32,000 bases of DNA from Candidatus Heimdallarchaeota archaeon B3_Heim (GCA_003144275.1 NJBF01000029.1:1-32000), one strand, 5' to 3'. Shown: positions 2,914 through 13,501, counted from the stretch's first letter. Notes: generated by a model not told the origin, from the letters alone. Made by a program: numbers and translations.

Positions 2914-3196
2914 AGTAGAAGGATCCTCCTATTTAGAGTGTTAAGTAAGAAAGATTTTCTGGATTTCGCTAAATGCATTTTTGAAAAGCTGGTATTATGA
3001 TTATTTAGATAAAACATCGTATTAACACCATTACAGGTGCAAATTCATCTTCTGACTTGATTGATGTTGCAATAAGCAAATTTCCTAAAATTTAAAATAT
3101 AATTCAAGTGTATTCTAGTTTAGCAGTATTTCTAACTATAATAAGCCTCGTATTCAATAAAAGAAGAAAATAGAAGAGCTCATAATAACTTGGGAA

Positions 3197-3601
3197 TTAC
3201 GCTTCTTTCCAGTCCCAGATCCCCACTTTTATCCAACGGCAGTAGGCCCAGATCCATGTTTGAATCATAATTGCTGCATCATATGCAGTAAACGTGAAAT
3301 GCCAGTCTTTCTGTGGACGCAGATAACAAATTTCGGTATGGCCATACTCATCCCGTCCATAAACATGGTGTGCCCGACTGGATATTTTCGGTACAACAAT
3401 CCATGCACGTGGTGGAGCGTTAGGGTAATTGTGCGGAAATTCGATCAATACGGTGAATGTACCGTGAGCATATTGTCCAGTAGTGGAATATTTTACTTGA
3501 ACAGCAATGTTACCATTATTTAAGTAGTAAAAATCTTTTCGCGTTAACCCTGGAAATACTCCTTTCAATTCATGCAATTCGTTCTCGACAGTACGATTCA
3601 T
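3197..3601 (-). CDS. E2/UBC-fold protein (prokaryotic E2-like), paralogue 1
   Basis: FTVLIEFPHNYPNAPP matches the UBC F-x-I-x-FP-x-x-YP-x-x-PP signature. HHVY...ICYL places a Cys at the catalytic position, followed by the conserved W (KDW). Confidence 0.8.
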   Translation of the reverse strand: MNRTVENELHELKGVFPGLTRKDFYYLNNGNIAVQVKYSTTGQYAHGTFTVLIEFPHNYPNAPPRAWIVVPKISSRAHHVYGRDEYGHTEICYLRPQKDWHFTFTAYDAAIMIQTWIWAYCRWIKVGIWDWKEA

Positions 3602-3636
3602 TACCCTACTTCCTTGTTCTACTATACTCAGTAATT

Positions 3637-4071
3637 CTAAAATATATGATCAATTACACCAGCTTCTGGCCAGTCCCATACATTCGTCTTGGTCCATCTA
3701 CAATACGTTCTAAGCCAAATTTCTACCAAAAGAGCTGTTTCATAAGAACTAAAATTGAGACGCCAGTCTTTCTTTGGGCGGAGATAACAGATACTCGCAT
3801 GACCATCCTCATCCCATCCATAAACATGGGGGGTATTTTTCAGAATTTTCGGTTTTTGAACCCATACTTTGGGGGAGCCAACTGGATAATTATAGGGAAA
3901 TTCAATCAGGATATCAAAATGACCACAGGCATATTTTCCCGTAGTAATAAAGCTTAATTGAACACATTTATTTTTATTTTTAAGTTGAAGAAAATCTTTT
4001 CTTTGTAAATCAGGGAATATTTTCTTTAATTTTTCTAATTCCCTATCGACTAAATTTCCTCTTAATGACAT
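3637..4071 (-). CDS. E2/UBC-fold protein (prokaryotic E2-like), paralogue 2
   Basis: FDILIEFPYNYPVGSP, PHVY...ICYLRPKKDW. A hand ungapped alignment to paralogue 1 gives 68/134 identities (~51%). Confidence 0.8.
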   Translation of the reverse strand: MSLRGNLVDRELEKLKKIFPDLQRKDFLQLKNKNKCVQLSFITTGKYACGHFDILIEFPYNYPVGSPKVWVQKPKILKNTPHVYGWDEDGHASICYLRPKKDWRLNFSSYETALLVEIWLRTYCRWTKTNVWDWPEAGVIDHIF

Positions 4072-4116
4072 GAATTTTACACTTCAGACGTTAGTTGTTT
4101 TGAGGATTGATCCAAT

Positions 4117-5334
4117 TTACACTTCTTCAGTTTTCTTCTCTAAGTTTGGTCCGTGAAATGGACATCCTTTATCTTTCTCTAAATCTTCATAGTAAACAAG
4201 CTCAAGTCCTTCAAAATTAATTATCTCAGTATTCGGTTTCATTATATTTCTGTTGTACCAGAGATAGAAATTAAATGGAAAGTGGTACAACCTATGTTCA
4301 TGTCCTTCTAAGAGAGTTGCTAAGCAAAACTTTGAGAGAAGAATTGTCAAATTATCAATATCTAAACCCAATCCTGGTTGGGCAAGTTGCTCCTGCATAG
4401 ACCGATCGTAAACTATTTTCTTTTCCAATTCATTGGTTGTGGGAATGCTACCTTTTGTTCCTCCATCCGTTAAAGGATATGCAAGGGAGTCAGCATATAC
4501 ACAATGATAACATAAATCATCTTTACGCGGATCCACTTTAAACAACAATCCCCCTTTCACACCATCAAAGGTTCCTGCATAAATAACTGGGAACTTCAAG
4601 TCATTGGTGTGGATGAAATCATTTATAGCAAAATTAACATCATGTTCTCCAGAAACAGCTATCAGGAGATCAATATCAGTAAATAAATCCAAGAAATAAA
4701 CAGCATCAGCTTTTGTTTGTAAAACAAATTTCTTTTCTACCGTTGTTATTTCGGTTCCTGGTATTCTTGCATGAATATAGTCTTTAACTGCCCTTGTTTT
4801 ATATCTCCCAAGGTGTCCAAGATCTGAAATATGCCGAATAATATTGTGGACTTCAAGATAATCGTTATCAATAAAGATAAATTTTTTAATTCCTGTTTTA
4901 GCAAGATACAAAGCCAAAAGAGACCCACCTGATCCCATACCAATAATAGCCACTTTTTTTTCTCTTAGTATCTTTAATGGAGTTTCTTCTTGATCAATAC
5001 GTACAAATAATCGATTAAGATCAATCATTTCTATAGCAAAATCTTGGACAACAGTAATAATTTCTTCTTTTTCAAAAATTTCTATTTTAGCAATCTTAAG
5101 GGTTTTTGAATCAAGTATCAAGTTAATAAAAGGGAACTTAAGTGAGAAATTAGGATTTGTGTTTTCTAGCGAAATATATCCAATTTGTTTAACAGTATCA
5201 GAGGTAGATGATATTTCGACAAGGTGAAACACTGTAAAATCGTCAAATATTCTTCCATACAAAGGAAAAGGATCTTCCTGAAAGTTTAATTCATTTAGTT
5301 GAGCCTTAAATTCAGGATACATGAGAAACTTCAT
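4117..5334 (-). CDS. E1-like ThiF/MoeB-family adenylyltransferase with ~110-aa N-terminal extension
   Basis: KVAIIGMGSGGS (nucleotide-binding), IDNDYLEVHNIIRH, GRYKT, Zn ligands CYHC (4501-4512) and CPFH (4153-4164). ATG at 5334, five bases after the JAB stop, is preferred over the track start at 5367. Confidence 0.9.
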   Translation of the reverse strand: MKFLMYPEFKAQLNELNFQEDPFPLYGRIFDDFTVFHLVEISSTSDTVKQIGYISLENTNPNFSLKFPFINLILDSKTLKIAKIEIFEKEEIITVVQDFAIEMIDLNRLFVRIDQEETPLKILREKKVAIIGMGSGGSLLALYLAKTGIKKFIFIDNDYLEVHNIIRHISDLGHLGRYKTRAVKDYIHARIPGTEITTVEKKFVLQTKADAVYFLDLFTDIDLLIAVSGEHDVNFAINDFIHTNDLKFPVIYAGTFDGVKGGLLFKVDPRKDDLCYHCVYADSLAYPLTDGGTKGSIPTTNELEKKIVYDRSMQEQLAQPGLGLDIDNLTILLSKFCLATLLEGHEHRLYHFPFNFYLWYNRNIMKPNTEIINFEGLELVYYEDLEKDKGCPFHGPNLEKKTEEV

Positions 5335-5339
5335 TTTTA

Positions 5340-6290
5340 TCACTTTTTGTCCTGCAAAATTTGCCAAAGAGGTTGCTCCAGAAGAGAGGGGATATCATCT
5401 TCAATATCAGTTTTTAGTAGAAGCAAAAATGGATTTATTAATTCCTTGTCATTTAAAGTCTCTGCTGGGTGAGTTTTAAATGTTATATTTTTTGACATAT
5501 CCTCTGAAGAAAAATCACAAAAGATTTTACCATCAGGGAATTCTGGGGGAAAAGATATTAATATCAATAGATTTACTAATTCTAGTTGGTCTAAGAGTTT
5601 AATTGTAAATTGATATGGGAATGATAAGACTTTTTCATCTGGTGTTTGACCTGTTAACTCTTCGATCTCATCCGTTGAAGTTAAATGATCAAAAATATTC
5701 ACAAGCTCATGTTTAACCTGTGTTAAAATATCACTTGGTACTCCTTTTTCTTCCTTTAGAGGTGTAGACATTTCTGTTCCTTCAATGGTGAAAGTCAAAT
5801 TACTTTGTGGAACACGACGAGTACGGAACGAATGGTTTTCAGTAAAACTTTCATCTCCTCGGAAGTAGACTTCAATAATTGGTTCGAACTCCACCTCTGA
5901 ATTGAAATTAATAATAAATGTCAAAATTACGTCAAGATGAGAATTTTTTCTGAAAAAATCCTCTATTTGTCTATGATCTCCGTGACTGGGACCACCGTAC
6001 CCAGGGTGCTTATGCCAATTTCCTAAATACTGTTGTTTCTCTTGCGATAAGACATTTTTTGCATATTCAGGATCTATTTCAAAATAAGCAGCTTTTCTGA
6101 CACAGTTATCGTCAGGAGGGATATGAGTCCTCACAATTTTTATAGTTAGTCGTGCTTCTTCCTCAATGACCTTCCCGAACAACATTCCACCAGTTTCTAT
6201 TTCTGGCCATAGGAAACCCTCTTTTACCATCTCATCGTATGTATCCTGAGTAATGTAGATAAATATGGACTCCGCTTGATAAGAGTACAC
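5340..6290 (-). CDS. JAB/MPN+ (JAMM) metallopeptidase with a C-terminal UBC/RWD-like domain
   Basis: ETGGMLFG (catalytic Glu) and GNWHKHPGYGGPSHGD (HxH...SxxD). GTG at 6290 follows GGGGAT; the track start is TTG 6317. The C-terminal LILISFPPEFP resembles the E2 ILIEFPYNYP. Confidence 0.85.
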   Translation of the reverse strand: MYSYQAESIFIYITQDTYDEMVKEGFLWPEIETGGMLFGKVIEEEARLTIKIVRTHIPPDDNCVRKAAYFEIDPEYAKNVLSQEKQQYLGNWHKHPGYGGPSHGDHRQIEDFFRKNSHLDVILTFIINFNSEVEFEPIIEVYFRGDESFTENHSFRTRRVPQSNLTFTIEGTEMSTPLKEEKGVPSDILTQVKHELVNIFDHLTSTDEIEELTGQTPDEKVLSFPYQFTIKLLDQLELVNLLILISFPPEFPDGKIFCDFSSEDMSKNITFKTHPAETLNDKELINPFLLLLKTDIEDDIPSLLEQPLWQILQDKK

Positions 6291-6341
6291 TGATATAATC
6301 CCCAAACTCTGGATCAAAAACTAAAAAAAGAGATATTTTAC

Positions 6342-6443
6342 CTAATAATGTTTCGATATTGGTACTGTATCTTTATTCTTTTCGGCATCTTCTGTTGCTT
6401 TCTCTTTTGACTCTGTGTCTACTCTTTTAACTGGTCGAGGCAT
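6342..6443 (-). CDS. 33-aa charged peptide MPRPVKRVDTESKEKATEDAEKNKDTVPISKHY, first gene of the JAB-E1-E2-E2 operon
   Basis: GGAG lies 9 nt upstream of the ATG, with an AT-rich TATA-like region further upstream. Same strand as, and immediately upstream of, the JAB gene. Confidence 0.55.
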   Translation of the reverse strand: MPRPVKRVDTESKEKATEDAEKNKDTVPISKHY

Positions 6444-6444
6444 T

Positions 6445-6505
6445 GTATTTTGCTCCATTAGTATGTAATTAAATACAGATTTAGTATATTTATTAATCTT
6501 TACTT
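6445..6505 (-). promoter_or_regulatory. Putative archaeal promoter and RBS for the peptide-JAB-E1-E2-E2 operon
   Basis: Minus strand reads gtaaagattaataaatata...taatggagcaaaatacaATG: purine-rich BRE-like element, TATA-like box, then GGAG. Confidence 0.4.
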
Positions 6506-6604: not shown

Positions 6605-6994
6605 TTAACTTGCATATTTGGAAGGACATTTTGTACTAATCATCGAAGCCTTGAACTGCCAGATATTCGAAATTGAAAGAAGTTTTCCTTCTACAACTAC
6701 TGTCTTGTCAACTTGAAATCCTGCTGGTCTTACTATATTGTTAGCAATTACTTGAATGAATAAACTGCCATTATTTTCCACCTGAGGATCAATAATTGTA
6801 AAATGAGTAGCGTTCATCTCCGTCACATTACCCACTATTTGTATTTTACGATCAATATAGGATTCTGGTTCAGGATGATCCATTAATTCTTGTACACTAA
6901 ATATTGGCACAGAGGAGCCTGTCAACAATATTAACAATGCTCCTGCACACACTAAAACAACAATGCCTGCTGCAATATTCTTGTTATTAACCAT
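6605..6994 (-). CDS. ccmE: Cytochrome c maturation heme chaperone CcmE, CxxxY type
   Basis: N-terminal TM, OB-fold-like core (IQIVGNV...VVVEGKL), C-terminal KCPSKY. ATG 6994 follows GGAGA; the track start is 7012. Confidence 0.92.
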   Translation of the reverse strand: MVNNKNIAAGIVVLVCAGALLILLTGSSVPIFSVQELMDHPEPESYIDRKIQIVGNVTEMNATHFTIIDPQVENNGSLFIQVIANNIVRPAGFQVDKTVVVEGKLLSISNIWQFKASMISTKCPSKYAS

Positions 6995-6998
6995 TTCT

Positions 6999-9608
6999 TC
7001 AATCTCCATCATTTATCTTTTCATCTAATTGAGAATCTATTTCCTGCTCTTTTTCTTTATCAGAGTCTTTCTTAGAATAAAGGTTTTTAAATATGACATA
7101 CCTAGCTATTACCAGCGGTACAATTGCAAAATGGAGAAAAAGACAACCAACCCAGAGAATATTAATGTATGATATTAGCTTGATTTGAAGAGTAGAAGCT
7201 GCGAATATACCTGATACATTGTCTTCATACACGGCAATTGTAACGATATAGATATCGAGAAGAATATCACTGATAAGAGTGACCGATTGATCTGGTCTAT
7301 TAGCTCGATCAAACGCTAGACGGCTTAATCCATAACCAACGATTCGATTACCAGATTTAATCAAAAATACGGTATCGTATCTGACAGCATCGTGTCCAGA
7401 TTCAGGATAGGTTCGATCTATATCTGTTATTTCAATTTTTAAGGAACTACCTGGAATTGGATATTCTCCACCCTGTCTAACCTCTTGAATTTCAGTTGTA
7501 ATTGTCATATTTGCACTGGTTATTGCTCCGAGGAGAATAAGTAATATTGATAGATGTAACATAGTTTGAGATGTTTTACGAAGTAAATGCTTCTCCTCGG
7601 TCATAGTGACATTGACGAATTCATATATTAGTCCGAATACTCCAAGAAGTAATAACGGTAACACTAAATTTGCTTTGTCACTCGAAGTCCAGAAATTAGT
7701 AAGGAAGGAGATTATTGGATTTCCACTGCCAAGAAAAGAAGGAAGGGACTCATTTCGATAAAAAATACCCCCTATCATAAATACAATTCCAACAATTCCT
7801 CCTCCAATGAGTAATTGGGTCTTACGTCGAACTGTAAATCGGGGGAAGAATGTACAGAAAAATTGAGCCAATAGCATTATGCCTCCAAATAATGTTAGTA
7901 TCGTGTTGTAAAAATATATATCTATTGTAATGTCATGTACAAATCCGTCTGGTCGGTATACTTCAATGCTATAGAGCATTCGCGAGATTGCATTTTCGAA
8001 ATACACTACGATTGGGTCTGTGAGAAGATGCCCAAAAATGTCATATATAACTGGAAAAAGCACGCTGAGAATTACTATATACATTCCAATTAATAATGCA
8101 ACGTTACGTCTATATTTTGTAACAGTAGGCTCAGAACTACTCAGAAAATTATTTATTCGTTTAATCTGATCCTTCTCAAAACCGATGTAATAGAGGAGAT
8201 ATAAGAAAAATCCCAGATAAATGATTAGAGAAAAGGTCGTTGGATAAAGTATTGTTTTACTAAACGCGATACCAAACAAAAGCAGAAGATCGTACAAAAA
8301 CGAGTACACTTCAAATAGTATTGGAGCTGTAAGAAGCAAACCAATGGCGTCATAAATGACTGGAAAAAGTAACCCCAGGATCATTGTATAGGTTCCAAGA
8401 AACAATGCTATGTATGATAATTTGAGAGCAGTACTTCGAATTTTTGAGGTTGTGAAGTCAGATCTTGTTAGAAAGTATGAAATTCTCCTGAATTGACCTT
8501 TTTTAAACCCAAGGTAATGTAGGAGGAACAAGAAAATCATCATACAAATGAAGAGAAATAGCATTCTTTCATCTGGTATTACTCTTAGAATCAATTTCAT
8601 GAGAAAGCTATCTGCTGGTATGAATGTCGATAATACTTGATCTAAGGAACCTCCGGGAGAAAATGTGTGGACACTTGAAATTATTGCGCTCCGTGTTAAG
8701 TAAGTGGCAGCTAAGGCACTTAAATAAGACATACTTATAATATAATTTCCAAGGTATTCGTTTTTCCTATGATAATTTGATTTTCCATGATAGAATATAG
8801 TAAGAAATAGCCAAGGCATTAAGGAAGCTGTTTCAACAGGATCCCAAGCCCAGAAACCACCCCAACCAAGTGTGATATAGGCCCAATACGCACCGATAAT
8901 GATTCCTGAACTCATGAATAGCCAAGCAAGCGAAACCAAGAATTCAAAGAATGAGTCCAGTTTTTCTTTACCTTCAAAGTCGGGTACTTTACCATCTTCT
9001 AGAATTGATATCCGAATGAACCCAATAACCATAGGTATCAGACATAAGATATATCCGAGTAGAATCATTGGTGGATGAATGATGTTCCATATGTTCATCA
9101 AGGTAGGATTTAATCCTGTTCCATCAGCTATTGTAAACGTGTTAATTTTGAATGGATCACTCATAATTGTTAGGGTGATGAAGATAGCTATTTGAGCAGC
9201 CAAGAGGACAAATGAGCGCCAAAAAAAAGTCTCATGGGCATATTCTCGAAACATTGTTCTGAATATGAGATAGAGAACTACGCCAAAGAAAGTCCAGAAG
9301 AAATATGAGCCAGCCTGGCCTGACCAAATAGCAGATAGCCTTAGGAAGAAGTCCATACTATTGCTAACATGCGCACTCACATATACAAAACTGTAGTCTG
9401 CTGTTATTACTGAGTAACCGAAATAGAAAAATGAGACAAGTACTGCTGAGCAACCAATAATTAAACCTAATTCAGAATAAGTTTCCCAATCTTCATATTT
9501 CTCTCCGAAAATCACGAATATCGCGTCAATGATAAAGGCAATCAAGCTTACTAGAAGCAAGAGTAAACCTAAATCGATTCCAAGTGTTCCTATACCGATG
9601 AAAATCAT
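6999..9608 (-). CDS. ccmF: Cytochrome c heme lyase CcmF/NrfE family, unusually long (869 aa)
   Basis: WSGQAGS, GLNPTL...IHPP, WGGFWAWDPVETASLMPW (WWD domain), SVHTF, HLSILL. Confidence 0.93.
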   Translation of the reverse strand: MIFIGIGTLGIDLGLLLLLVSLIAFIIDAIFVIFGEKYEDWETYSELGLIIGCSAVLVSFFYFGYSVITADYSFVYVSAHVSNSMDFFLRLSAIWSGQAGSYFFWTFFGVVLYLIFRTMFREYAHETFFWRSFVLLAAQIAIFITLTIMSDPFKINTFTIADGTGLNPTLMNIWNIIHPPMILLGYILCLIPMVIGFIRISILEDGKVPDFEGKEKLDSFFEFLVSLAWLFMSSGIIIGAYWAYITLGWGGFWAWDPVETASLMPWLFLTIFYHGKSNYHRKNEYLGNYIISMSYLSALAATYLTRSAIISSVHTFSPGGSLDQVLSTFIPADSFLMKLILRVIPDERMLFLFICMMIFLFLLHYLGFKKGQFRRISYFLTRSDFTTSKIRSTALKLSYIALFLGTYTMILGLLFPVIYDAIGLLLTAPILFEVYSFLYDLLLLFGIAFSKTILYPTTFSLIIYLGFFLYLLYYIGFEKDQIKRINNFLSSSEPTVTKYRRNVALLIGMYIVILSVLFPVIYDIFGHLLTDPIVVYFENAISRMLYSIEVYRPDGFVHDITIDIYFYNTILTLFGGIMLLAQFFCTFFPRFTVRRKTQLLIGGGIVGIVFMIGGIFYRNESLPSFLGSGNPIISFLTNFWTSSDKANLVLPLLLLGVFGLIYEFVNVTMTEEKHLLRKTSQTMLHLSILLILLGAITSANMTITTEIQEVRQGGEYPIPGSSLKIEITDIDRTYPESGHDAVRYDTVFLIKSGNRIVGYGLSRLAFDRANRPDQSVTLISDILLDIYIVTIAVYEDNVSGIFAASTLQIKLISYINILWVGCLFLHFAIVPLVIARYVIFKNLYSKKDSDKEKEQEIDSQLDEKINDGD
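8010..8528 (-). repeat. Internal tandem duplication within CcmF (aa ~362-430 and ~471-533)
   Basis: LLHYLGFKKGQFRRISYFL...ALFLGTYTMILGLLFPVIYDAIGLLLTAPI versus LLYYIGFEKDQIKRINNFL...ALLIGMYIVILSVLFPVIYDIFGHLLTDPI. Confidence 0.8.
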
Positions 9609-9610
9609 CC

Positions 9611-11857
9611 TTATGTCTCCATTGTGTTCTTAGTTCGTTGTTTTCCCTGTGTTCTCCTTTTTCTCCTTTTTCCTCCTCTCTGTTTAAAGCTAGCTCTTCT
9701 CATTCCCTTTAACGTTCGACGAGCACTCTTTTTCTTATATTCAACGTAAGTATAAAGTCCTGCAGGCACAAAAATCCCAAAAATTGCGAATAATCCAATG
9801 ATTATTGAAAATGGCAAAGGTGGTTTCTCGTGACCTAAAATGTAGAAATAGGAAGCTCCATCAAAATCAAAGTTCAATTCAAAATCAATCACTTCATAAT
9901 AGTAGGCATATGTACCAGGCACACCTAGGCCTTCAGGGAAAGTAGCTGTCCATAAGTGTTCAGCTATATGAACAAATTTTACTGATTTCTCATCCTGACC
10001 AGGGAGGTGATAATAGATACGTAAATATTTGACTTCTCCTTGGATTGGTACATCTTGAGCACTGACTGTTATAGAAAATTGTGTATTAATTGGTATTTCA
10101 TATCCAGGCTCAAACCCCAACTCTGTAACAATAGGAGCCCATTCGTCAAATTGCCACAGGAAATAATATGTTGCCCGAATAACATAATTACCTAAAGTGT
10201 CATTTACAATGATATTGAAAAAGATATCTGCCCCGTCATATTGATTGGGTATTGTTGTATTATACATATTTCCAATTCGAGAATCAGGAACCATCTCTAC
10301 AAGTTCATAAGGGTTATCGTCTATTGAATAATTAAGAAATACGTTTGAGATCCCGTCTGCATCAAATGCAGCTATCATAATCGTAACAGGATCCTGAGGC
10401 CGTGGTGTAGATGGTGACCAAATTGCATTCAAAACACCTGGTTTGCTATACAGCCAAAGATTGGAGAGAGCGAAAATTGCTAGCGTTTGTGTGACGGTTA
10501 ATTTATCTTCCCAGGCTGGATCACCGAATAAGCCATCCCTGTTTGTTAATAAATTGTACCCTGAGTGTTCTGCGTCATAAAGTTTGTTTGTTAAAATTTC
10601 GACAACGTCTAAAATAATATTATAATAAACGCTCATCCCTGATATTTCGTATGCCTTATCAAGGGCCCGTATAGCATAAAATTGACGTTCAGTATACTTT
10701 TTGTCATCTCTTTCTTCATTATTATAAGAGTACGTAGCATAAAAAGCACCGAATTCGTTATCCCAGAAATTTGTCATTACTGAATTTAGAAGCAGGAAAA
10801 AGTCATCGTAATATTTTGTTTCTTCTGTAACATTATAGAGGTCTGCCAGAAATTCGAGAACAAGTGAGTTAATAAAACTATCAGATACATATGGTTCAAT
10901 AAACCAATTATCTTTATCAACACCTGTGTAGAAAAGATGAGTTGTACTATTTCGACAAGTACCATTAATGGTGTCAAAAATTCTTAGTGCAGTTGTTAAA
11001 TATTTTTCATCTGATTCTATTTGATAAAGGTCTAACAATGCATTCCCCATTAAAACATTGTGGTCAACACGGTTTGATGTAGGGGTGTAAGGATCGGCTG
11101 TATTTGGATTAATTAACGAAATTTTTCCAGTATCAGACAATAGATAAGCATAGTATCCTTTAGTCTCATTCCATGCTTCACTATGTTGATAATCGTAGGT
11201 ATCTATTGCAGTTTGTCTGTAGGTTTCATTACCAGTAATCTCGTACAAAGCTAAAAATGCTTGAATGGCTTTTGCTTGATTCCCAGGTTTTCTATACTGG
11301 TTAGTATCACTTATAAAAAATCCATTGTTAGTATCATCATATAAACTAGTGAGAAGGTAATTTGCTGTCTTTACGGCTATTTCGATGGCAAAGTCTCTCT
11401 CCGTTTGATTAATCACTGCATCTGCAAGTTTTAAAAATGCTAAAATTGCCTGAGCATTATCATATGATCGTTTAATTGTATTAATGGATGATGCTTGCCA
11501 GTGAGCATCCGCAGAACCGTAAAACCCCCCCGAAGAATTATCGAATAAGTGATCTACTAATGCGTTGGCTATTTCAACCGAATAATATAGAAAATTAGGG
11601 AAATATGCCTCAGGGTCACTTTGTGTATGTGATTCTACACCATAATGAATCGAAGATCGATTAAGTGGTTCAGAGTCAAGGTCTCCAACTAATTCTAAAC
11701 TCTGGGGACTTGTACTACTCTGGTTGAGGTTCAGTGTTGAATTGGAGTCAAAGCTGGGAAAAAGAATTCCAAGCATCAGCAATGATAGGAAAGAAATGGT
11801 GGACCATTTCTTCTTTCTAAGGCCTAGATATGTCATTTTGTGCATAAATAATTCCAT
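9611..11857 (-). CDS. Membrane-anchored surface protein: (alpha/alpha)6 six-hairpin glycosidase-like barrel (AGE/GH76/YyaL-like), Ig-like domains, C-terminal TM and basic tail
   Basis: Repeats of the form D...GGFY...K..YDNAQAILAFL.L (three or more copies); N-terminal hydrophobic segment; C-terminal TM followed by a KR-rich tail. Start is uncertain (11857/11845; the track start is 11995). Confidence 0.65.
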   Translation of the reverse strand: MELFMHKMTYLGLRKKKWSTISFLSLLMLGILFPSFDSNSTLNLNQSSTSPQSLELVGDLDSEPLNRSSIHYGVESHTQSDPEAYFPNFLYYSVEIANALVDHLFDNSSGGFYGSADAHWQASSINTIKRSYDNAQAILAFLKLADAVINQTERDFAIEIAVKTANYLLTSLYDDTNNGFFISDTNQYRKPGNQAKAIQAFLALYEITGNETYRQTAIDTYDYQHSEAWNETKGYYAYLLSDTGKISLINPNTADPYTPTSNRVDHNVLMGNALLDLYQIESDEKYLTTALRIFDTINGTCRNSTTHLFYTGVDKDNWFIEPYVSDSFINSLVLEFLADLYNVTEETKYYDDFFLLLNSVMTNFWDNEFGAFYATYSYNNEERDDKKYTERQFYAIRALDKAYEISGMSVYYNIILDVVEILTNKLYDAEHSGYNLLTNRDGLFGDPAWEDKLTVTQTLAIFALSNLWLYSKPGVLNAIWSPSTPRPQDPVTIMIAAFDADGISNVFLNYSIDDNPYELVEMVPDSRIGNMYNTTIPNQYDGADIFFNIIVNDTLGNYVIRATYYFLWQFDEWAPIVTELGFEPGYEIPINTQFSITVSAQDVPIQGEVKYLRIYYHLPGQDEKSVKFVHIAEHLWTATFPEGLGVPGTYAYYYEVIDFELNFDFDGASYFYILGHEKPPLPFSIIIGLFAIFGIFVPAGLYTYVEYKKKSARRTLKGMRRASFKQRGGKRRKRRTQGKQRTKNTMET

Positions 11858-12000
11858 CTTTCTAATTTCAGGATTAGTTCCAGTTTGTTTCGTGATTTGA
11901 TAGTGAATTTCTGATTGGGCGGGGGGATTAATGAACGAAATCGAACAACATTCAAAGCTTATACAACGAGCGAATAACGCTAACTCAACTCCCAACCAAC

Positions 12001-12020
12001 TGAAGAAAAAAAAAGAAGAA
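12001..12020 (-). terminator. T-run terminator after the multiheme cytochrome gene
   Basis: Minus strand reads ttcttctttttttttcttca, ~60 nt past the stop. Confidence 0.45.
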
Positions 12021-12076
12021 TCAGCAAATAAATGCTGATCTTATTTGAATTTATTTTAGATATTAGCTTGTCTAAC

Positions 12077-13501
12077 CTATCGTCTCTTTCTTGTGAAAAG
12101 GACGGCTAAGCTAAGGATGCCAATAAGACCTAAAACACCTATTGCAGGAGCAGATGAAGTAGTTTCTTCTTCAGTAGTTGTTTCTTCAGTGGTTGTGGTA
12201 GTTGTAGTCGTCGTTTCAGGTTCAGGGATAAGGGCATCGACAATACCGTAGGCTTCATCTAATTTAGCCAAAGCTAACTTTAGCTTGTCCTCGGCAAGAT
12301 CTCCATTATGGAATCCTGTGCTCGGTTCACCCGTGACATCGTGAGCGAGATCGGCAGCTTCATCCAGTAGATCTTCGGCGTCGCCAATTAAGGTCATGTT
12401 GACACCTTCAACTGCTTTAGCTTCGGCAATTCTACCAGAGACATTCTCTAGTTGTGTTCCATAGCTAGCAATTAAGGCTTCAGTATCACCTTGAATAGCT
12501 TCCATCCATGCAATACGGGCTGCTTCTTCACCTTCGTGACAACCAGTTTGGTTACCACAGGCATCTTCAAGAACAAGAGTCCAATTGTGCAGGATTGAGG
12601 CTTCACCAACAGTGTCGTTACCATCCCAGTAATACCCATGACAGGTAGTACAATCATCAATGATTGCGTGGGGAGTAGCAAAGGTTGTATCAGTAAGGAA
12701 TTCTACAACATCACCGTGACAGGTTCCACAAAGCTCAACAGTACCATTCTTGCGAAGTTCATGTTCATATCTAACCCCATCTTCGTTGTGGGGGTCGTGA
12801 CATGTTACACAGTCAATGTTTCCAAAGGAAAGATCTTCATAGGTACTTTCACCAGCCATACAATGCATACAATAATCAAAGTCGCCTGTAGCGGCAAGGA
12901 GATCATCGAATGATTCAGAGTGACCAGTTTGTACCCAAGTTTTTCCTCGGGATCCAGGAATGTGACATCGTCCTGAACACGTCTTCTCAAACGGAAATCC
13001 TGTACCAGGATCGGTAAAGTATGTTGCTTCTGCACCTGGTTCTTCGTGACATGCTCCACAGGATACACCTATATCCCAAACGTTCCATTCACCTGATGCA
13101 TTAACAGATGTATCATTGTAACGTTGTGTAACGTGACAACATCCACCATCGTTAATAAATTCAGTTACGTTATAGTCGTCACCACTCGTAGTGTGCCTGA
13201 TATATGTACCAGTAGCGTTCGTATAATATTGGAGAATATACGAGTGTTTCGTGAGATTCCATCCGTCTACTTCAGCCTGATGACAAGGGACACAATCGTC
13301 TGGGTGATATTCCCCAGTAACGGGATCAGCGATAGCACTATGGTCATAGCCTTCAACACTATATTTAGGATTCAGTAGTGTTGAGCTTATACCAACCGCA
13401 GCACTTGACCCAAGGAAAACGATTGCGAACCAGTAGAATAGTATTATTCTTCTACCGTTCCACTTGCTTTGGCGAACTAGAACTTCTTTTTCTTCGTTCA
13501 T
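12077..13501 (-). CDS. Cell-surface multiheme cytochrome c with NrfA/c552-like helical C-terminal domain, Thr-rich linker and C-terminal membrane anchor
   Basis: Five canonical CxxCH (C70, C148, C231, C258, C284) plus CX3CH, CX5CH, CCH and CxxCM; STGFHN; N-terminal TM/signal; ends APAIGVLGLIGILSLAVLFTRKRR. Confidence 0.88.
   Translation of the reverse strand: MNEEKEVLVRQSKWNGRRIILFYWFAIVFLGSSAAVGISSTLLNPKYSVEGYDHSAIADPVTGEYHPDDCVPCHQAEVDGWNLTKHSYILQYYTNATGTYIRHTTSGDDYNVTEFINDGGCCHVTQRYNDTSVNASGEWNVWDIGVSCGACHEEPGAEATYFTDPGTGFPFEKTCSGRCHIPGSRGKTWVQTGHSESFDDLLAATGDFDYCMHCMAGESTYEDLSFGNIDCVTCHDPHNEDGVRYEHELRKNGTVELCGTCHGDVVEFLTDTTFATPHAIIDDCTTCHGYYWDGNDTVGEASILHNWTLVLEDACGNQTGCHEGEEAARIAWMEAIQGDTEALIASYGTQLENVSGRIAEAKAVEGVNMTLIGDAEDLLDEAADLAHDVTGEPSTGFHNGDLAEDKLKLALAKLDEAYGIVDALIPEPETTTTTTTTTEETTTEEETTSSAPAIGVLGLIGILSLAVLFTRKRR
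12153..12220 (-). repeat. Low-complexity Thr/Glu linker (PETTTTTTTTTEETTTEEETTSS)
   Basis: Directly visible codon repeats preceding the anchor; typical of O-glycosylated archaeal surface linkers. Confidence 0.8.

What the first reader, a model, noticed from the sequence alone, without database searches (positions are those of the whole stretch)
3197..6443. Self-contained peptide-JAB-E1-E2-E2 conjugation operon with no ubiquitin-like gene
Seen: five co-oriented genes with gaps of 35-52 nt or less, bounded upstream by the ccmE terminator and its own promoter/RBS and downstream by a T-rich tract. They encode a JAMM protease, a ThiF/E1 enzyme and two Cys-bearing E2 folds. No ORF ending in GG and no beta-grasp-sized ORF lies in or beside the operon; a 33-aa disordered peptide occupies the first position. 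Established: CBASS Cap2/Cap3 conjugate the CD-NTase, Bil systems use a Ubl with E1, E2 and JAB, and Asgard ubiquitin loci carry Ub, E1, E2, RING and JAB. This locus matches none of these: no Ubl, no CD-NTase, no RING. Inference: an undescribed activation-transfer-removal system that tags proteins with, or modifies, a non-ubiquitin peptide, possibly for defence.
Basis: partly seen in the sequence, partly recalled or inferred. Interest (0 to 1): 0.9.

Follow-up and report, generated by a model that had tools for sequence, protein, structure and literature searches.

The report
Peptide-tagging E1-E2-JAB operon in archaea
An Asgard archaeon carries a self-contained five-gene cassette of ubiquitin-type enzymes whose partner is not a ubiquitin-like protein but an almost invariant 33-residue peptide, which is probably a new kind of small protein tag.

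Summary
On the minus strand, window 3197-6443 holds five genes: a 33-aa peptide, a JAMM/JAB peptidase with a Cys-less E2/UEV-like C-terminal domain, a ThiF-type E1, and two paralogous Cys-bearing E2s. No Ubl, CD-NTase, RING or GG-ending ORF lies in or beside the cassette.

The new result concerns the peptide.
- It is the best-conserved gene of the cassette. It is 85-100% identical across 14 Hodarchaeales loci, against 42-68% for the JAB.
- It is under strong purifying selection: 31 of 34 third codon positions vary and pN/pS is 0.09.
- It has its own conserved TATA-like box and ribosome-binding site.
- It co-occurs with the enzymes in 12 of 22 genomes of one genus and in none of about 378 other Asgard genomes searched.
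- Homologous peptides (N-terminal MPR..., C-terminal ...P-x-x-K-H-Y/F) precede the JAB gene in every related operon that could be tested. These include four-gene operons of soil Nitrososphaeraceae.
- Many copies carry short, unrelated tails after the aromatic residue, as Ubl precursors do.

Best reading, inferred rather than shown: the enzymes are Cap2/Cap3-like. The E1 adenylates the peptide's C-terminal Tyr, the E2 cysteines carry it, and the JAB trims tails and removes conjugates. Targets and biological role are unknown. I found no description of it in the literature library.

The parts
6488..6502 (-). Conserved TATA/BRE-like promoter element (AAAGATTAATAAAT), about 45-55 nt upstream of the peptide ATG. 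A GGAG ribosome-binding site lies at about 6453-6456.
   Evidence: The same element sits at the same distance in all 14 Hodarchaeales loci, although the surrounding DNA differs. That it is an archaeal promoter is inferred from the consensus. No transcript data are available.
6342..6443 (-). 33-aa peptide gene (P0051). N-terminus MPRPVK, acidic/basic middle, C-terminus VPISKHY. It is the proposed modifier or substrate of the cassette.
   Evidence: It is 85-100% identical in 14 loci. Variable sites by codon position are 9, 5 and 31, and pN/pS is 0.087. It occurs once per genome and only together with the enzymes. Homologues are found in Nitrososphaeraceae and in other metagenome operons. It has no Pfam, NCBIfam, PDB or Atlas match.
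5340..6290 (-). JAMM/JAB metallopeptidase (residues 1-175) fused to a Cys-less E2/UEV/RWD-like domain (residues about 178-316).
   Evidence: Prok-JAB and PADLOC JAB hits. JAMM residues are invariant. The AF2 model has pLDDT 86. The best structural match is Cap3 (9ild_A): Z 13.7, rmsd 2.7, 138 residues aligned. The C-terminal domain matches Tsg101 UEV (Z 6.2, 113 aligned) and the Cap2 E2 domain (Z 5.9, 98 aligned). This is a weak, middling Z. hhalign places its FPPEFP motif on the E2 FPxNYP motif (E 0.005, probability 7%). A sister-family JAB carries a faint RWD hit.
4117..5334 (-). ThiF-type E1 adenylating enzyme (residues about 112-405) with an N-terminal beta-rich domain (1-105) of unresolved fold.
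   Evidence: ThiF at 1.1e-23 and PADLOC CBASS 'E1-E2' models down to 4e-28. Structural matches: MoeB Z 20.8, Atg7 19.7, MccB 19.0, Cap2 19.0. The GxGSGG motif, D156, R167 and K179 are invariant. C275xxC278 plus C391xxH394 looks like a Zn site (inferred). There is no invariant cysteine in the crossover region.
3637..4071 (-). E2a: an E2-fold protein with candidate catalytic Cys95 and a paralogue-specific C-terminal tail PEAG-x-x-D-H-x-F.
   Evidence: PADLOC E2 at 1.6e-9, weak UQ_con, RWD and Prok-E2_E hits, and E2-CBASS in relatives. H82 and C95 are invariant.
3197..3601 (-). E2b: the second E2 paralogue, 52% identical to E2a. It is the best-conserved enzyme of the cassette.
   Evidence: PADLOC E2 at 3.1e-9. 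It is 73-93% identical among loci. H82 and C95 are invariant.
3153..3196 (-). T-rich tract after E2b, the likely end of the transcription unit.
   Evidence: Read directly from the sequence. That it is an archaeal terminator is inferred.

Best explanation
The cassette is a stand-alone relative of the Cap2/Cap3 (6a/6b-type) E1-E2-JAB conjugation machinery. Its substrate is the co-encoded, probably disordered peptide of about 3.8 kDa rather than a beta-grasp Ubl or a CD-NTase.

Proposed cycle, with every chemical step inferred:
1. Where the peptide is made with a short C-terminal tail, the JAB peptidase trims it and exposes the conserved aromatic residue (Tyr33 here).
2. The E1 dimer binds the extended C-terminus and adenylates its carboxylate.
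3. The E1 has no conserved crossover-loop cysteine. The acyl-adenylate is therefore attacked directly by Cys95 of E2a or E2b, giving a peptide~E2 thioester.
4. The E2 passes the peptide to an amine, probably a lysine, on targets that are not yet known.
5. The JAB peptidase reverses the conjugates. Its Cys-less E2-like domain may dock on the peptide, on the E1 or on the conjugates.

What is shown: the genes are real, their catalytic motifs are intact, and the peptide is a strictly co-inherited, strongly constrained partner across two archaeal phyla.

What is not shown: any adenylation, thioester or conjugate, the targets, and the biological role (defence or regulation).
For: 1. The peptide is a real, constrained coding gene. 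Variable sites by codon position are 9, 5 and 31, pN/pS is 0.087, and the promoter and RBS are conserved.

2. It is the most conserved gene of the cassette. Identity to the window is 85-100% for the peptide, 73-93% for E2b, 58-88% for E2a, 54-76% for E1 and 42-68% for JAB.

3. Co-occurrence is strict. The peptide is in 12 of 400 Asgard genomes and the JAB protein in the same 12. A 13th genome has the JAB gene cut by a contig start. All lie in one GTDB genus.

4. The partnership survives deep divergence and gene rearrangement.
- Nitrososphaeraceae have a four-gene operon of peptide (51-54 aa), JAB, E1 and one E2, with overlapping genes.
- Other forms are a JAB-E1 fusion preceded by the peptide, the order E2-peptide-JAB-E1, and a sister family peptide-E2-JAB/RWD-E1.
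- All 41 loci with the JAB 5' end and at least 110 nt of upstream sequence had a peptide HMM hit, apart from 7 distant sister-family loci with JAB at most 35% identical.

5. Conservation is concentrated at the C-terminus: P-x-x-K/E/D-H-Y/F.
- Most Hodarchaeales copies stop right after Tyr.
- Other copies carry unrelated tails: S, RN, GN, HFGE, RQ, KLIHHV, FLL, and NDS/SDT/NDT/TLQ/LLNDP.
- This is the pattern of Ub/Ubl precursors, and BilC is a JAB that pre-processes its Ubl (10.1101/2023.09.26.559546).

6. There is a precedent that this enzyme type needs no beta-grasp. Cap2's E1 site binds only the last 7 residues of cGAS. Its E1 cysteine is dispensable in vitro because the E2 cysteine can take over (10.1101/2022.03.31.486616).

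7. No other gene is conserved beside the cassette, and no Ubl lies on this contig.

8. Complex prediction (two copies of E1, the peptide and ATP) gave weak support only.
- ipSAE was 0.40 (runs 0.40, 0.44, 0.01) and the best of 3 controls was 0.02.
- The mark was reached by 58 of 80 solved complexes and 2 of 110 mismatched pairs.
- At 0.60 or under, it was reached by only 7 of those 80 solved complexes and by both mismatches that passed.
- The runs agree in at least 22% of contacts, and the partner's pLDDT is at least 30.
Against: - There is no biochemical or expression evidence at all.
- The complex score is in the range where passes are more often wrong than right unless the guess was already likely.
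- A C-terminal Tyr or Phe is bulky. Known E1 substrates end in Gly, and a bulky charged replacement of the terminal Gly (G436E) abolished CBASS defence (10.1101/2022.03.31.486616).
- The E1 adenylation domain was modelled with only moderate confidence (mean pLDDT 66), so the pocket could not be inspected.
- No target, E3 or effector is encoded, so the output of the system is unknown.
- In Nitrososphaeraceae the exact processing site (after F, or after the following F/Y) is ambiguous.
- The window's neighbours are housekeeping genes, which gives no support for a defence island.
Confidence: 0.55

Rival explanations
1. The peptide is a precursor of a modified peptide product (RiPP-like, as MccA is for MccB). 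The E1 adenylates or otherwise modifies its C-terminus. The JAB acts as a maturation protease that removes the tail. The E2s act as carriers or scaffolds. The product acts as a free molecule rather than as a protein tag.
For: The E1 model matches MccB (Z 19.0) and PaaA (Z 17.7) about as well as it matches Cap2. The substrate is a short linear peptide with a conserved C-terminus and variable follower tails. The E1 has an extra N-terminal domain of unknown fold, where MccB has its peptide clamp.
Against: Cysteine-bearing E2s are retained in every operon: two in Hodarchaeales and one in Nitrososphaeraceae. That points to thioester transfer, which MccB-type pathways do not use. No transporter, immunity or further tailoring gene is conserved beside the cassette. 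The best sequence matches of all three enzymes are CBASS-type Cap2/Cap3 models. A reversible isopeptidase-type JAB with Cap3 as its best structural match fits deconjugation.
Confidence: 0.12
2. The peptide is not transferred. It is a regulator, pseudosubstrate or assembly cofactor of the enzymes, for example plugging the E1 or JAB active site. The real modifier is supplied in trans: the genome's ubiquitin or ThiS/MoaD-type proteins, or the C-terminal tail of E2a.
For: The genome encodes ubiquitin and five ThiS-family matches elsewhere. E2a ends in a conserved tail, D-H-x-F with an optional R or RG, that resembles the peptide's C-terminus. Bulky C-terminal residues are unusual E1 substrates.
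Against: The ubiquitin gene lies about 320 nt upstream of its own candidate E1, a weak ThiF-type match at E 3e-6. Nitrososphaeraceae operons have a single E2 without the E2a-type tail and still keep the peptide. The pattern of variable tails after an invariant aromatic residue suggests that a free C-terminus has to be generated, which an inhibitor would not need. Peptide and enzymes are gained and lost together.
Confidence: 0.18
3. The small ORF is only a leader (uORF) or an acceptor substrate. Either its translation tunes expression of the downstream genes, or its six lysines receive a modification.
For: It is the first cistron, and in Nitrososphaeraceae it overlaps the JAB start. It is lysine-rich, with 6 K in 33 residues.
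Against: A uORF would not keep its amino-acid sequence at 85-100% identity while synonymous sites are near saturation (mean pS 0.61). Nor would it keep N- and C-terminal motifs across two phyla. Only K6, K13 and K31 are invariant in the nine-sequence Hodarchaeales alignment, and the strongest conservation is at the extreme C-terminus, not around lysines.
Confidence: 0.05

Closest known systems
Type II CBASS Cap2/Cap3 (family 6b of Iyer/Burroughs/Aravind)
   Same: The E1, E2 and JAB proteins hit the PADLOC CBASS E1-E2, E2 and JAB models best. The E2s belong to Pfam E2-CBASS in relatives. The JAB domain's best structural match is Cap3 (Z 13.7), and the E1 matches Cap2 at Z 19.0. Like Cap2, the system has no beta-grasp Ubl and would act on an extended C-terminal tail (10.1101/2022.03.31.486616).
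   Different: There is no CD-NTase and no effector. E1 and E2 are separate genes, and the E2 is duplicated. The E1 has no conserved crossover-loop cysteine. The JAB carries an extra Cys-less E2-like domain. The substrate is a dedicated peptide of 33-54 aa ending in H-Y/F, not an enzyme ending in Gly.
6A-MBL system (E2-E1-JAB triple fusion plus metallo-beta-lactamase)
   Same: It is the best NCBIfam hit for the E1 (61 bits), JAB (36.8 bits) and E2a (16.5 bits). It is also an Ubl-less E1/E2/JAB module.
   Different: The scores are far below the 320-bit cut-off. The genes are not fused, and no MBL gene lies in any locus.
BilABCD and Bub bacterial ubiquitination-like systems
   Same: Both have an E1 + E2 + JAB/DUB + small modifier logic, with the DUB pre-processing the modifier's C-terminal extension (10.1101/2023.09.26.559546). 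The Bil DUB (8tyy_B, Z 12.0) and BubCD (9ea5_A, Z 12.0 and 18.3) are structural matches.
   Different: Bil and Bub modifiers are beta-grasp proteins ending in Gly. BilD is a pseudo-dimeric canonical-type E1 with a Cys domain. Here the modifier candidate is too short for a beta-grasp, and the E1 has the single ThiF-type adenylation domain of the homodimeric MoeB/Cap2/Atg7-type E1s (its dimer state was not tested here).
Pup (prokaryotic ubiquitin-like protein) of actinobacteria
   Same: A short, charged, disordered peptide serves as a covalent protein tag and is made with a C-terminal residue that must be processed. This comparison rests on my own knowledge.
   Different: The enzymology is unrelated: PafA and Dop are glutamine-synthetase-like, with no E1, E2 or JAB. 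Pup ends in GGQ/GGE and is linked through a side-chain carboxylate. There is no sequence similarity.
ATG7-ATG3/ATG10 (non-canonical eukaryotic E1 with two E2s acting in trans)
   Same: Both have a homodimer-type E1 with an extra N-terminal domain and two separate E2s. Cap2-type enzymes are reported as the closest prokaryotic relatives of ATG7, ATG3 and ATG10 (10.1101/2022.03.31.486616). The E1 model matches Atg7 at Z 19.4-19.7.
   Different: The ATG substrates are beta-grasp Ubls (ATG8, ATG12). ATG7 has a crossover-loop cysteine. Homology of the N-terminal domain here could not be established. The patchy distribution, in one Hodarchaeales genus, does not suggest vertical ancestry.
MccB/MccA (microcin C7) and PaaA
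   Same: A ThiF-type enzyme acts on the C-terminus of a short ribosomal peptide (fold match Z 19.0 and 17.7).
   Different: Those pathways have no E2 and no JAB. The MccA peptide ends in Asn and is exported. No export or immunity genes are found here.

Membership tests
ThiF/MoeB/E1 adenylating superfamily | Rossmann-type adenylation domain with a GxGxxG nucleotide loop and conserved Arg/Lys/Asp | tested here: met
   PF00899 at 84 bits against a cut-off of 28.1. G132, G134-G137, D156, R167 and K179 are invariant. MoeB Z 20.8.
JAMM/MPN+ metallopeptidases | Glu ... HxH ... S-x-x-D zinc motif on an MPN fold | tested here: met
   E32, H93, H95, S102 and D105 are invariant in 23 sequences. Cap3, Rpn11 and BRCC36 match at Z 13-13.7.
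E2/UBC-fold conjugating enzymes (E2-CBASS type) | E2 fold with a conserved catalytic cysteine after a conserved His | tested here: met
   PADLOC E2 models at 1.6e-9 and 3.1e-9. PF26395 in relatives. H82 and C95 are invariant in 22 sequences. The E2 fold itself was not modelled here.
Type II CBASS | CD-NTase (cyclase) and effector genes in the operon | tested here: not met
   The flanks are ccmE and a MoxR ATPase. No cyclase family was found in the window. Only JAB, E1 and E2 are conserved between loci.
Type II CBASS | Cap2 as a single E2-linker-E1 polypeptide with an E1 catalytic Cys on the crossover loop | tested here: not met
   E1 and E2 are separate genes. The only invariant cysteines in the E1 are C275, C278 and C391 of the CxxC...CxxH motif.
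6A-MBL system | cap2_3 triple-fusion protein reaching the NCBIfam cut-off, plus an MBL-fold partner | tested here: not met
   NF058523 scores 61, 36.8 and 16.5 bits against a cut-off of 320. No MBL gene is in any locus.
Bil / Bub / Asgard-eukaryotic ubiquitin systems | A beta-grasp Ubl gene ending in Gly (GG) in the operon | tested here: not met
   No GG-ending frame lies near the operon. PF00240 and PF02597 matches are only on other contigs. Relatives carry the peptide instead.
Asgard/eukaryote-type ubiquitin system | RING-type E3 and a canonical UBC E2 with an HPN motif | not tested
   No RING family appeared in the Pfam scans of the cassette. The genome's ubiquitin/E1-like locus on contig C10 was not analysed further.
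Pupylation | Pup ending in GGQ/GGE, with PafA/Dop ligase genes | tested here: not met
   The peptide ends in K-H-Y. PafA/Dop were not searched for in the genome, so only the motif was tested.
MccB-type peptide-nucleotide RiPP clusters | A peptide ending in Asn, an N-terminal peptide-clamp domain on the E1, and export/immunity genes | tested here: inconclusive
   The peptide ends in Tyr or Phe, and no transporter is conserved. The fold of the E1 N-terminal domain (1-105) is unresolved.
Covalent protein modifier (functional class) | ATP-dependent adenylation, thioester formation and an isopeptide bond to targets | not testable with these tools
   The only indications are comparative and a weak complex prediction.

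The most novel reading that the evidence does not exclude
The 33-aa peptide and its 32-54-aa homologues are a previously unrecognised class of covalent protein modifier. They would be intrinsically disordered, lack a beta-grasp, and be activated at a C-terminal Tyr or Phe by a Cap2/ATG7-like E1. They would be carried by E2s acting in trans and removed by a JAB isopeptidase. Their precursor tails would be processed as in ubiquitin. The system is present in Hodarchaeales (Asgard) and in soil ammonia-oxidising Nitrososphaeraceae.
Probability: 0.45. Interest if true: 0.9.

Novelty: new variant of a known kind. Interest (0 to 1): 0.82.

Why it matters
All protein tags known to be handled by E1/E2 machinery are beta-grasp proteins. 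The one exception is CBASS, where a whole enzyme is conjugated through its tail. If a dedicated peptide of 33-54 residues is the modifier here, the E1-E2-JAB chemistry can run on a minimal linear tag.

This would give a third solution for protein tagging besides Ubls and Pup. It would also add a post-translational system to two ecologically important archaeal groups. One is proposed as the closest relative of eukaryotes (PMC10307638), and the other comprises the main soil ammonia oxidisers.

The system is small enough to reconstitute directly: four or five genes and a peptide that can be synthesised. After trypsin digestion the tag should leave a diagnostic His-Tyr remnant on lysine, calculated at +300.12 Da. 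Existing proteomes can therefore be re-searched for it.

The finding also shows that gene callers and domain databases miss the key component. The peptide is unnamed or uncalled in every record seen.

Tried and rejected
- **Expression.** No listed holder of the stretch is on record as RNA. Two runs labelled metatranscriptomic are probably DNA and were available only as contigs. Nothing can be said about expression.
- **Peptide homology search.** I used exact look-ups, genome searches, an HMM built from fetched loci, and the 52-aa Nitrososphaeraceae homologue instead.
- **Known families for the peptide.** Pfam, NCBIfam, PDB sequences and the ESM Atlas gave nothing usable.
- **E1 N-terminal domain (residues 1-105).**
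  - My idea that it is a degenerate MPN domain was not supported: hhalign against the JAB alignment gave E 0.24.
  - Atlas features gave only sub-threshold hints to the Cap2 linker (score 0.76).
  - BLASTP against a 589-aa relative aligned only the E1 core, and Pfam found no linker family.
  - The structure searches barely tested this part. The fold is unresolved.
- **JAB C-terminal domain.** Pfam found nothing. The E2/UEV assignment rests on middling Z scores, a weak hhalign match and the secondary-structure order.
- **63-aa reading of the first ORF.** Rejected, because the upstream part is not conserved.
- **Sigma-70 promoter and hairpin terminator scans.** These do not apply to archaea and found nothing above shuffles for promoters.
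- **Literature.** Nine full-text searches and six papers opened (a seventh look-up, by DOI, was not held) gave no description of a peptide partner for E1/E2/JAB operons in archaea. The library lacks most subscription journals, so prior description cannot be excluded.
- **Conserved effector or target gene.** None was found.

Full report
**1. What is there.**
The feature lies on the minus strand of the window.
- From 5' to 3' it comprises:
  - a 33-aa ORF (6342-6443, P0051);
  - a 316-aa JAB protein (5340-6290, GTG start, identical to database protein P0001);
  - a 405-aa E1 (4117-5334, using the ATG shared with relatives);
  - two E2 paralogues: E2a (3637-4071, 144 aa) and E2b (3197-3601, 134 aa), which are 52% identical to each other.
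- The gaps between genes are 51, 5, 45 and 35 nt.
- ccmE (6605-7012) and a ccmF-like gene lie upstream. A MoxR-type ATPase lies downstream.
- The organism is a Hodarchaeales (Heimdall-group Asgard) archaeon, judged from the names of the closest database proteins and of related contigs.

**2. The enzymes.**
- *JAB.* It passes the Prok-JAB cut-off. E32, H93-x-H95, S102 and D105 are invariant in 23 homologues.
  - The AF2 model (pLDDT 86) matches Cap3 best: 9ild_A, Z 13.7, rmsd 2.7 over 138 residues. Rpn11, BRCC36 and archaeal JAMM1 follow.
- *JAB C-terminal domain.* Residues about 178-316 have the order helix, four strands, helices.
  - They match the Tsg101 UEV domain (Z 6.2, 113 residues) and the E2 domain of Cap2 (Z 5.9). 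These Z values are middling.
  - hhalign places their FPPEFP motif on the FPxNYP motif of the operon's own E2s (E 0.005, probability 7%).
  - The domain has no invariant cysteine. I read it as a catalytically dead E2/UEV/RWD-like domain with moderate confidence.
- *E1.* It hits ThiF at 1.1e-23 and CBASS 'E1-E2' models down to 4e-28.
  - Its model matches MoeB (Z 20.8), Atg7 (19.7), MccB (19.0) and Cap2 (19.0).
  - The nucleotide-binding residues are invariant.
  - The only invariant cysteines belong to a CxxC...CxxH motif, probably a zinc site. Nothing corresponds to the crossover-loop catalytic cysteine of Cap2 or ATG7.
  - The N-terminal 105 residues form a beta-rich domain whose fold I could not assign.
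- *E2s.* Both keep an invariant His82 and Cys95 (I-C-Y-L-R-P).

**3. The peptide is the key component.**
- In the first three relatives examined, the flanking genes all differed but the same cassette was present. A 33-aa ORF with an almost identical sequence preceded the JAB gene.
- Across 14 Hodarchaeales loci, identity to the window falls in this order: peptide 85-100%, E2b 73-93%, E2a 58-88%, E1 54-76%, JAB 42-68%.
- In the codon alignment, 31 third positions vary against 9 first and 5 second positions. Mean pS is 0.61, mean pN is 0.053, and the ratio is 0.087. The amino-acid sequence is what is being kept, so this is a translated peptide and not an RNA or DNA element.
- A TATA-like AAAGATTAATAAAT box and a GGAG are conserved upstream, while the rest of the upstream DNA is not.
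- In metagenome contigs of other strains, similarity of at least 85% starts and stops at the borders of the peptide ORF, 6344-6444.

**4. Distribution.**
- Among 400 Asgard genomes, the peptide is found in 12. The JAB protein is found in the same 12, plus one genome where the contig begins inside the JAB gene. All belong to one GTDB genus, and 12-13 of its 22 species carry it. None of the other families do.
- The peptide occurs once per genome.
- Only the JAB, E1 and E2 genes (ORFs of 80 aa or more were compared) are shared among 11 Hodarchaeales loci. The cassette is therefore self-contained and has moved or been lost repeatedly.

**5. Relatives further out.**
- An exhaustive HMMER search with the E1 gave a graded series of relatives. 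Their contigs and two collection scans show the same partnership in other lineages.
- *Soil Nitrososphaeraceae.* The peptide was found in 13 of 201 sampled genomes.
  - They have a four-gene operon with overlapping genes: a peptide of 51-54 aa, a JAB of about 337 aa, an E1 of about 418 aa and a single E2 of about 151 aa.
  - Their peptide starts MPRDLK, against MPRPVK here. It ends T-I-P-N-I-K-H-F, followed by F or Y and a variable tail.
- *Other metagenome forms.*
  - MPRG...T-I-P-V-T-K-H-Y with tail FLL or LLL.
  - ...T-V-P-V-T-K-H-Y with tail KLIHHV.
  - A JAB-E1 fusion preceded by ...I-P-V-T-K-H-Y with tail RQ.
  - Operons ordered E2-peptide-JAB-E1, whose 32-33-aa peptides start MPRP and stop after E-H-Y or D-H-Y.
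- *A more distant sister family.* It has the order peptide-E2-JAB(+RWD)-E1. Its peptides end in H-T-F-Y, with or without a tail.
- All 41 loci in which the 5' end of the JAB gene and at least 110 nt upstream are on the contig gave a hit to the peptide HMM. The exceptions are 7 distant sister-family loci with JAB at most 35% identical. Some of the 41 are the same contig reached by two tools.
- The peptides have no Pfam, NCBIfam, PDB or Atlas match. They are 'hypothetical' or uncalled in every source.

**6. The C-terminal pattern.**
- Most Hodarchaeales peptides stop immediately after the invariant Tyr.
- Independent variants continue with S, RN, GN or HFGE.
- All Nitrososphaeraceae and most intermediate forms have unrelated tails of 2-6 residues.
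- An invariant residue followed by disposable sequence is what ubiquitin-family precursors look like. In the Bil system a JAB enzyme does that trimming (10.1101/2023.09.26.559546).
- This is the main reason, beyond gene linkage, to think that the peptide's C-terminal carboxylate is the reactive end.

**7. Mechanism.**
Cap2, the closest characterised relative, binds only the last seven residues of its substrate in the E1 site and adenylates them. Its linker domain resembles the ATG7 N-terminal domain that recruits E2s. Its E1 cysteine is dispensable in vitro because the E2 cysteine can attack instead (10.1101/2022.03.31.486616).
- Transposed to this cassette, the steps would be:
  1. the E1 adenylates Tyr33;
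  2. Cys95 of E2a or E2b takes the peptide as a thioester;
  3. the peptide is passed to an amine on targets;
  4. the JAB trims precursors and reverses conjugates.
- A complex prediction of two E1 copies, the peptide and ATP gave weak support only.
  - ipSAE was 0.40 (runs 0.40, 0.44, 0.01), against 0.02 for the best of three controls.
  - The mark was reached by 58 of 80 solved complexes and 2 of 110 mismatched pairs.
  - At 0.60 or under, it was reached by only 7 of those 80 solved complexes and by both mismatches that passed.
  - The runs agree in at least 22% of contacts, and the partner's pLDDT is at least 30.
- All chemical steps are inferred.
- Points against the mechanism:
  - the C-terminal residue is bulky;
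  - no target or E3 is known;
  - there is no expression or biochemical evidence.

**8. Alternatives.**
- *RiPP-like reading (MccB-type).* It is weakened by the E2s, which are always present, by the Cap3-like JAB, and by the lack of export genes.
- *Regulator or pseudosubstrate reading, with a modifier in trans.* It is weakened by three points:
  - joint gain and loss of peptide and enzymes;
  - the ubiquitin gene having a weak E1-like (ThiF-type) match of its own just downstream elsewhere in the genome;
  - the tail pattern.
- *uORF reading.* It is excluded in practice by the protein-level conservation.

**9. Role.**
The role is unknown.
- The patchy distribution, the variable neighbourhoods, the fast-evolving JAB and the kinship with CBASS accessory genes would fit a conflict system. 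One locus sits beside HEPN/nucleotidyltransferase genes.
- The window itself is ordinary chromosome: cytochrome c maturation, a multihaem cytochrome, Msr enzymes and 2-oxoacid oxidoreductases.
- I leave defence as a possibility, not a conclusion.

**10. Novelty.**
- The enzymes are a known kind: the E1/E2/JAB families 6a/6b.
- A dedicated short non-beta-grasp peptide as their partner is not among the families described in the papers I could read. These were Iyer et al. 2006 (PMC1779556), the Cap2 preprint, the Bil preprint and an Asgard defensome survey (PMC13700489).
- No paper in the library describes it.
- I rate it a new variant of a known kind. If the peptide is shown to be conjugated, it would be a new class of protein modifier.

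Noticed in passing
window 3637-3666 (the C-terminal 9-10 residues of E2a); alignment A3: E2a, but not E2b or the single Nitrososphaeraceae E2, ends in a conserved tail P-E-A-G-x-x-D-H-x-F. Three genomes add R or RG after it. This resembles the peptide's H-aromatic C-terminus with optional tail. E2a might itself be an E1 substrate or an autoinhibitory mimic.
   Followed up: partly
window 5340-5760 (JAB residues about 178-316): The JAB protein carries a C-terminal Cys-less E2/UEV/RWD-like domain. Counting it, the cassette holds three E2-fold modules. A sister-family JAB has a faint Pfam RWD hit (L080).
   Followed up: partly
G000:C10:25333-26134 (own genome, another contig; loci L002, L033): A ubiquitin-family gene (PF00240, 54.9 bits) lies about 320 nt upstream of a weak ThiF-type (E1-like) match (E 3e-6, 32% identity over 92 residues). 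This looks like a separate ubiquitin-E1 pair, but the E1 call was not verified. A second pair of ubiquitin-like matches lies on C86.
   Followed up: no
L080:253-4292 and L106:1221-4340: A sister operon family has the order peptide-E2-JAB(+RWD)-E1. In L080 a class I methyltransferase follows. Its peptides of 46-51 aa are acidic and then basic, and end in H-T-F-Y with or without a tail.
   Followed up: partly
L044:132-2162 (P0078, 676 aa): A natural JAB-E1 fusion protein is preceded by the peptide gene in a low-GC soil metagenome contig.
   Followed up: partly
window 6344-6444 in runs X1, X4, X5 and X8: Contigs of other strains or species in marine sediment samples match the window at 85% or more only across the peptide ORF. 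Loose ends lie at its start and stop codons.
   Followed up: partly
window 6605-13501: This Asgard genome carries ccmE, a very long (869 aa) cytochrome c assembly protein (ccmF-like), and a 474-aa protein with paired CXXCH/cytochrome c7 motifs. Together these suggest multihaem cytochrome maturation.
   Followed up: no
JAB model residues 1-164 (ranks 38, 40, 48): The MPN domain model also aligns to the Atg7 N-terminal domain (3vx8_A Z 7.3, 3vh2_A Z 6.6). In the Atlas it aligns to the N-terminal regions of some ThiF proteins. This may only reflect a common arrangement.
   Followed up: no
L041:6755-7622: In one Hodarchaeales relative the cassette lies next to a HEPN / nucleotidyltransferase pair and an Hcp-like gene. 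This is the only defence-island-like context seen.
   Followed up: no
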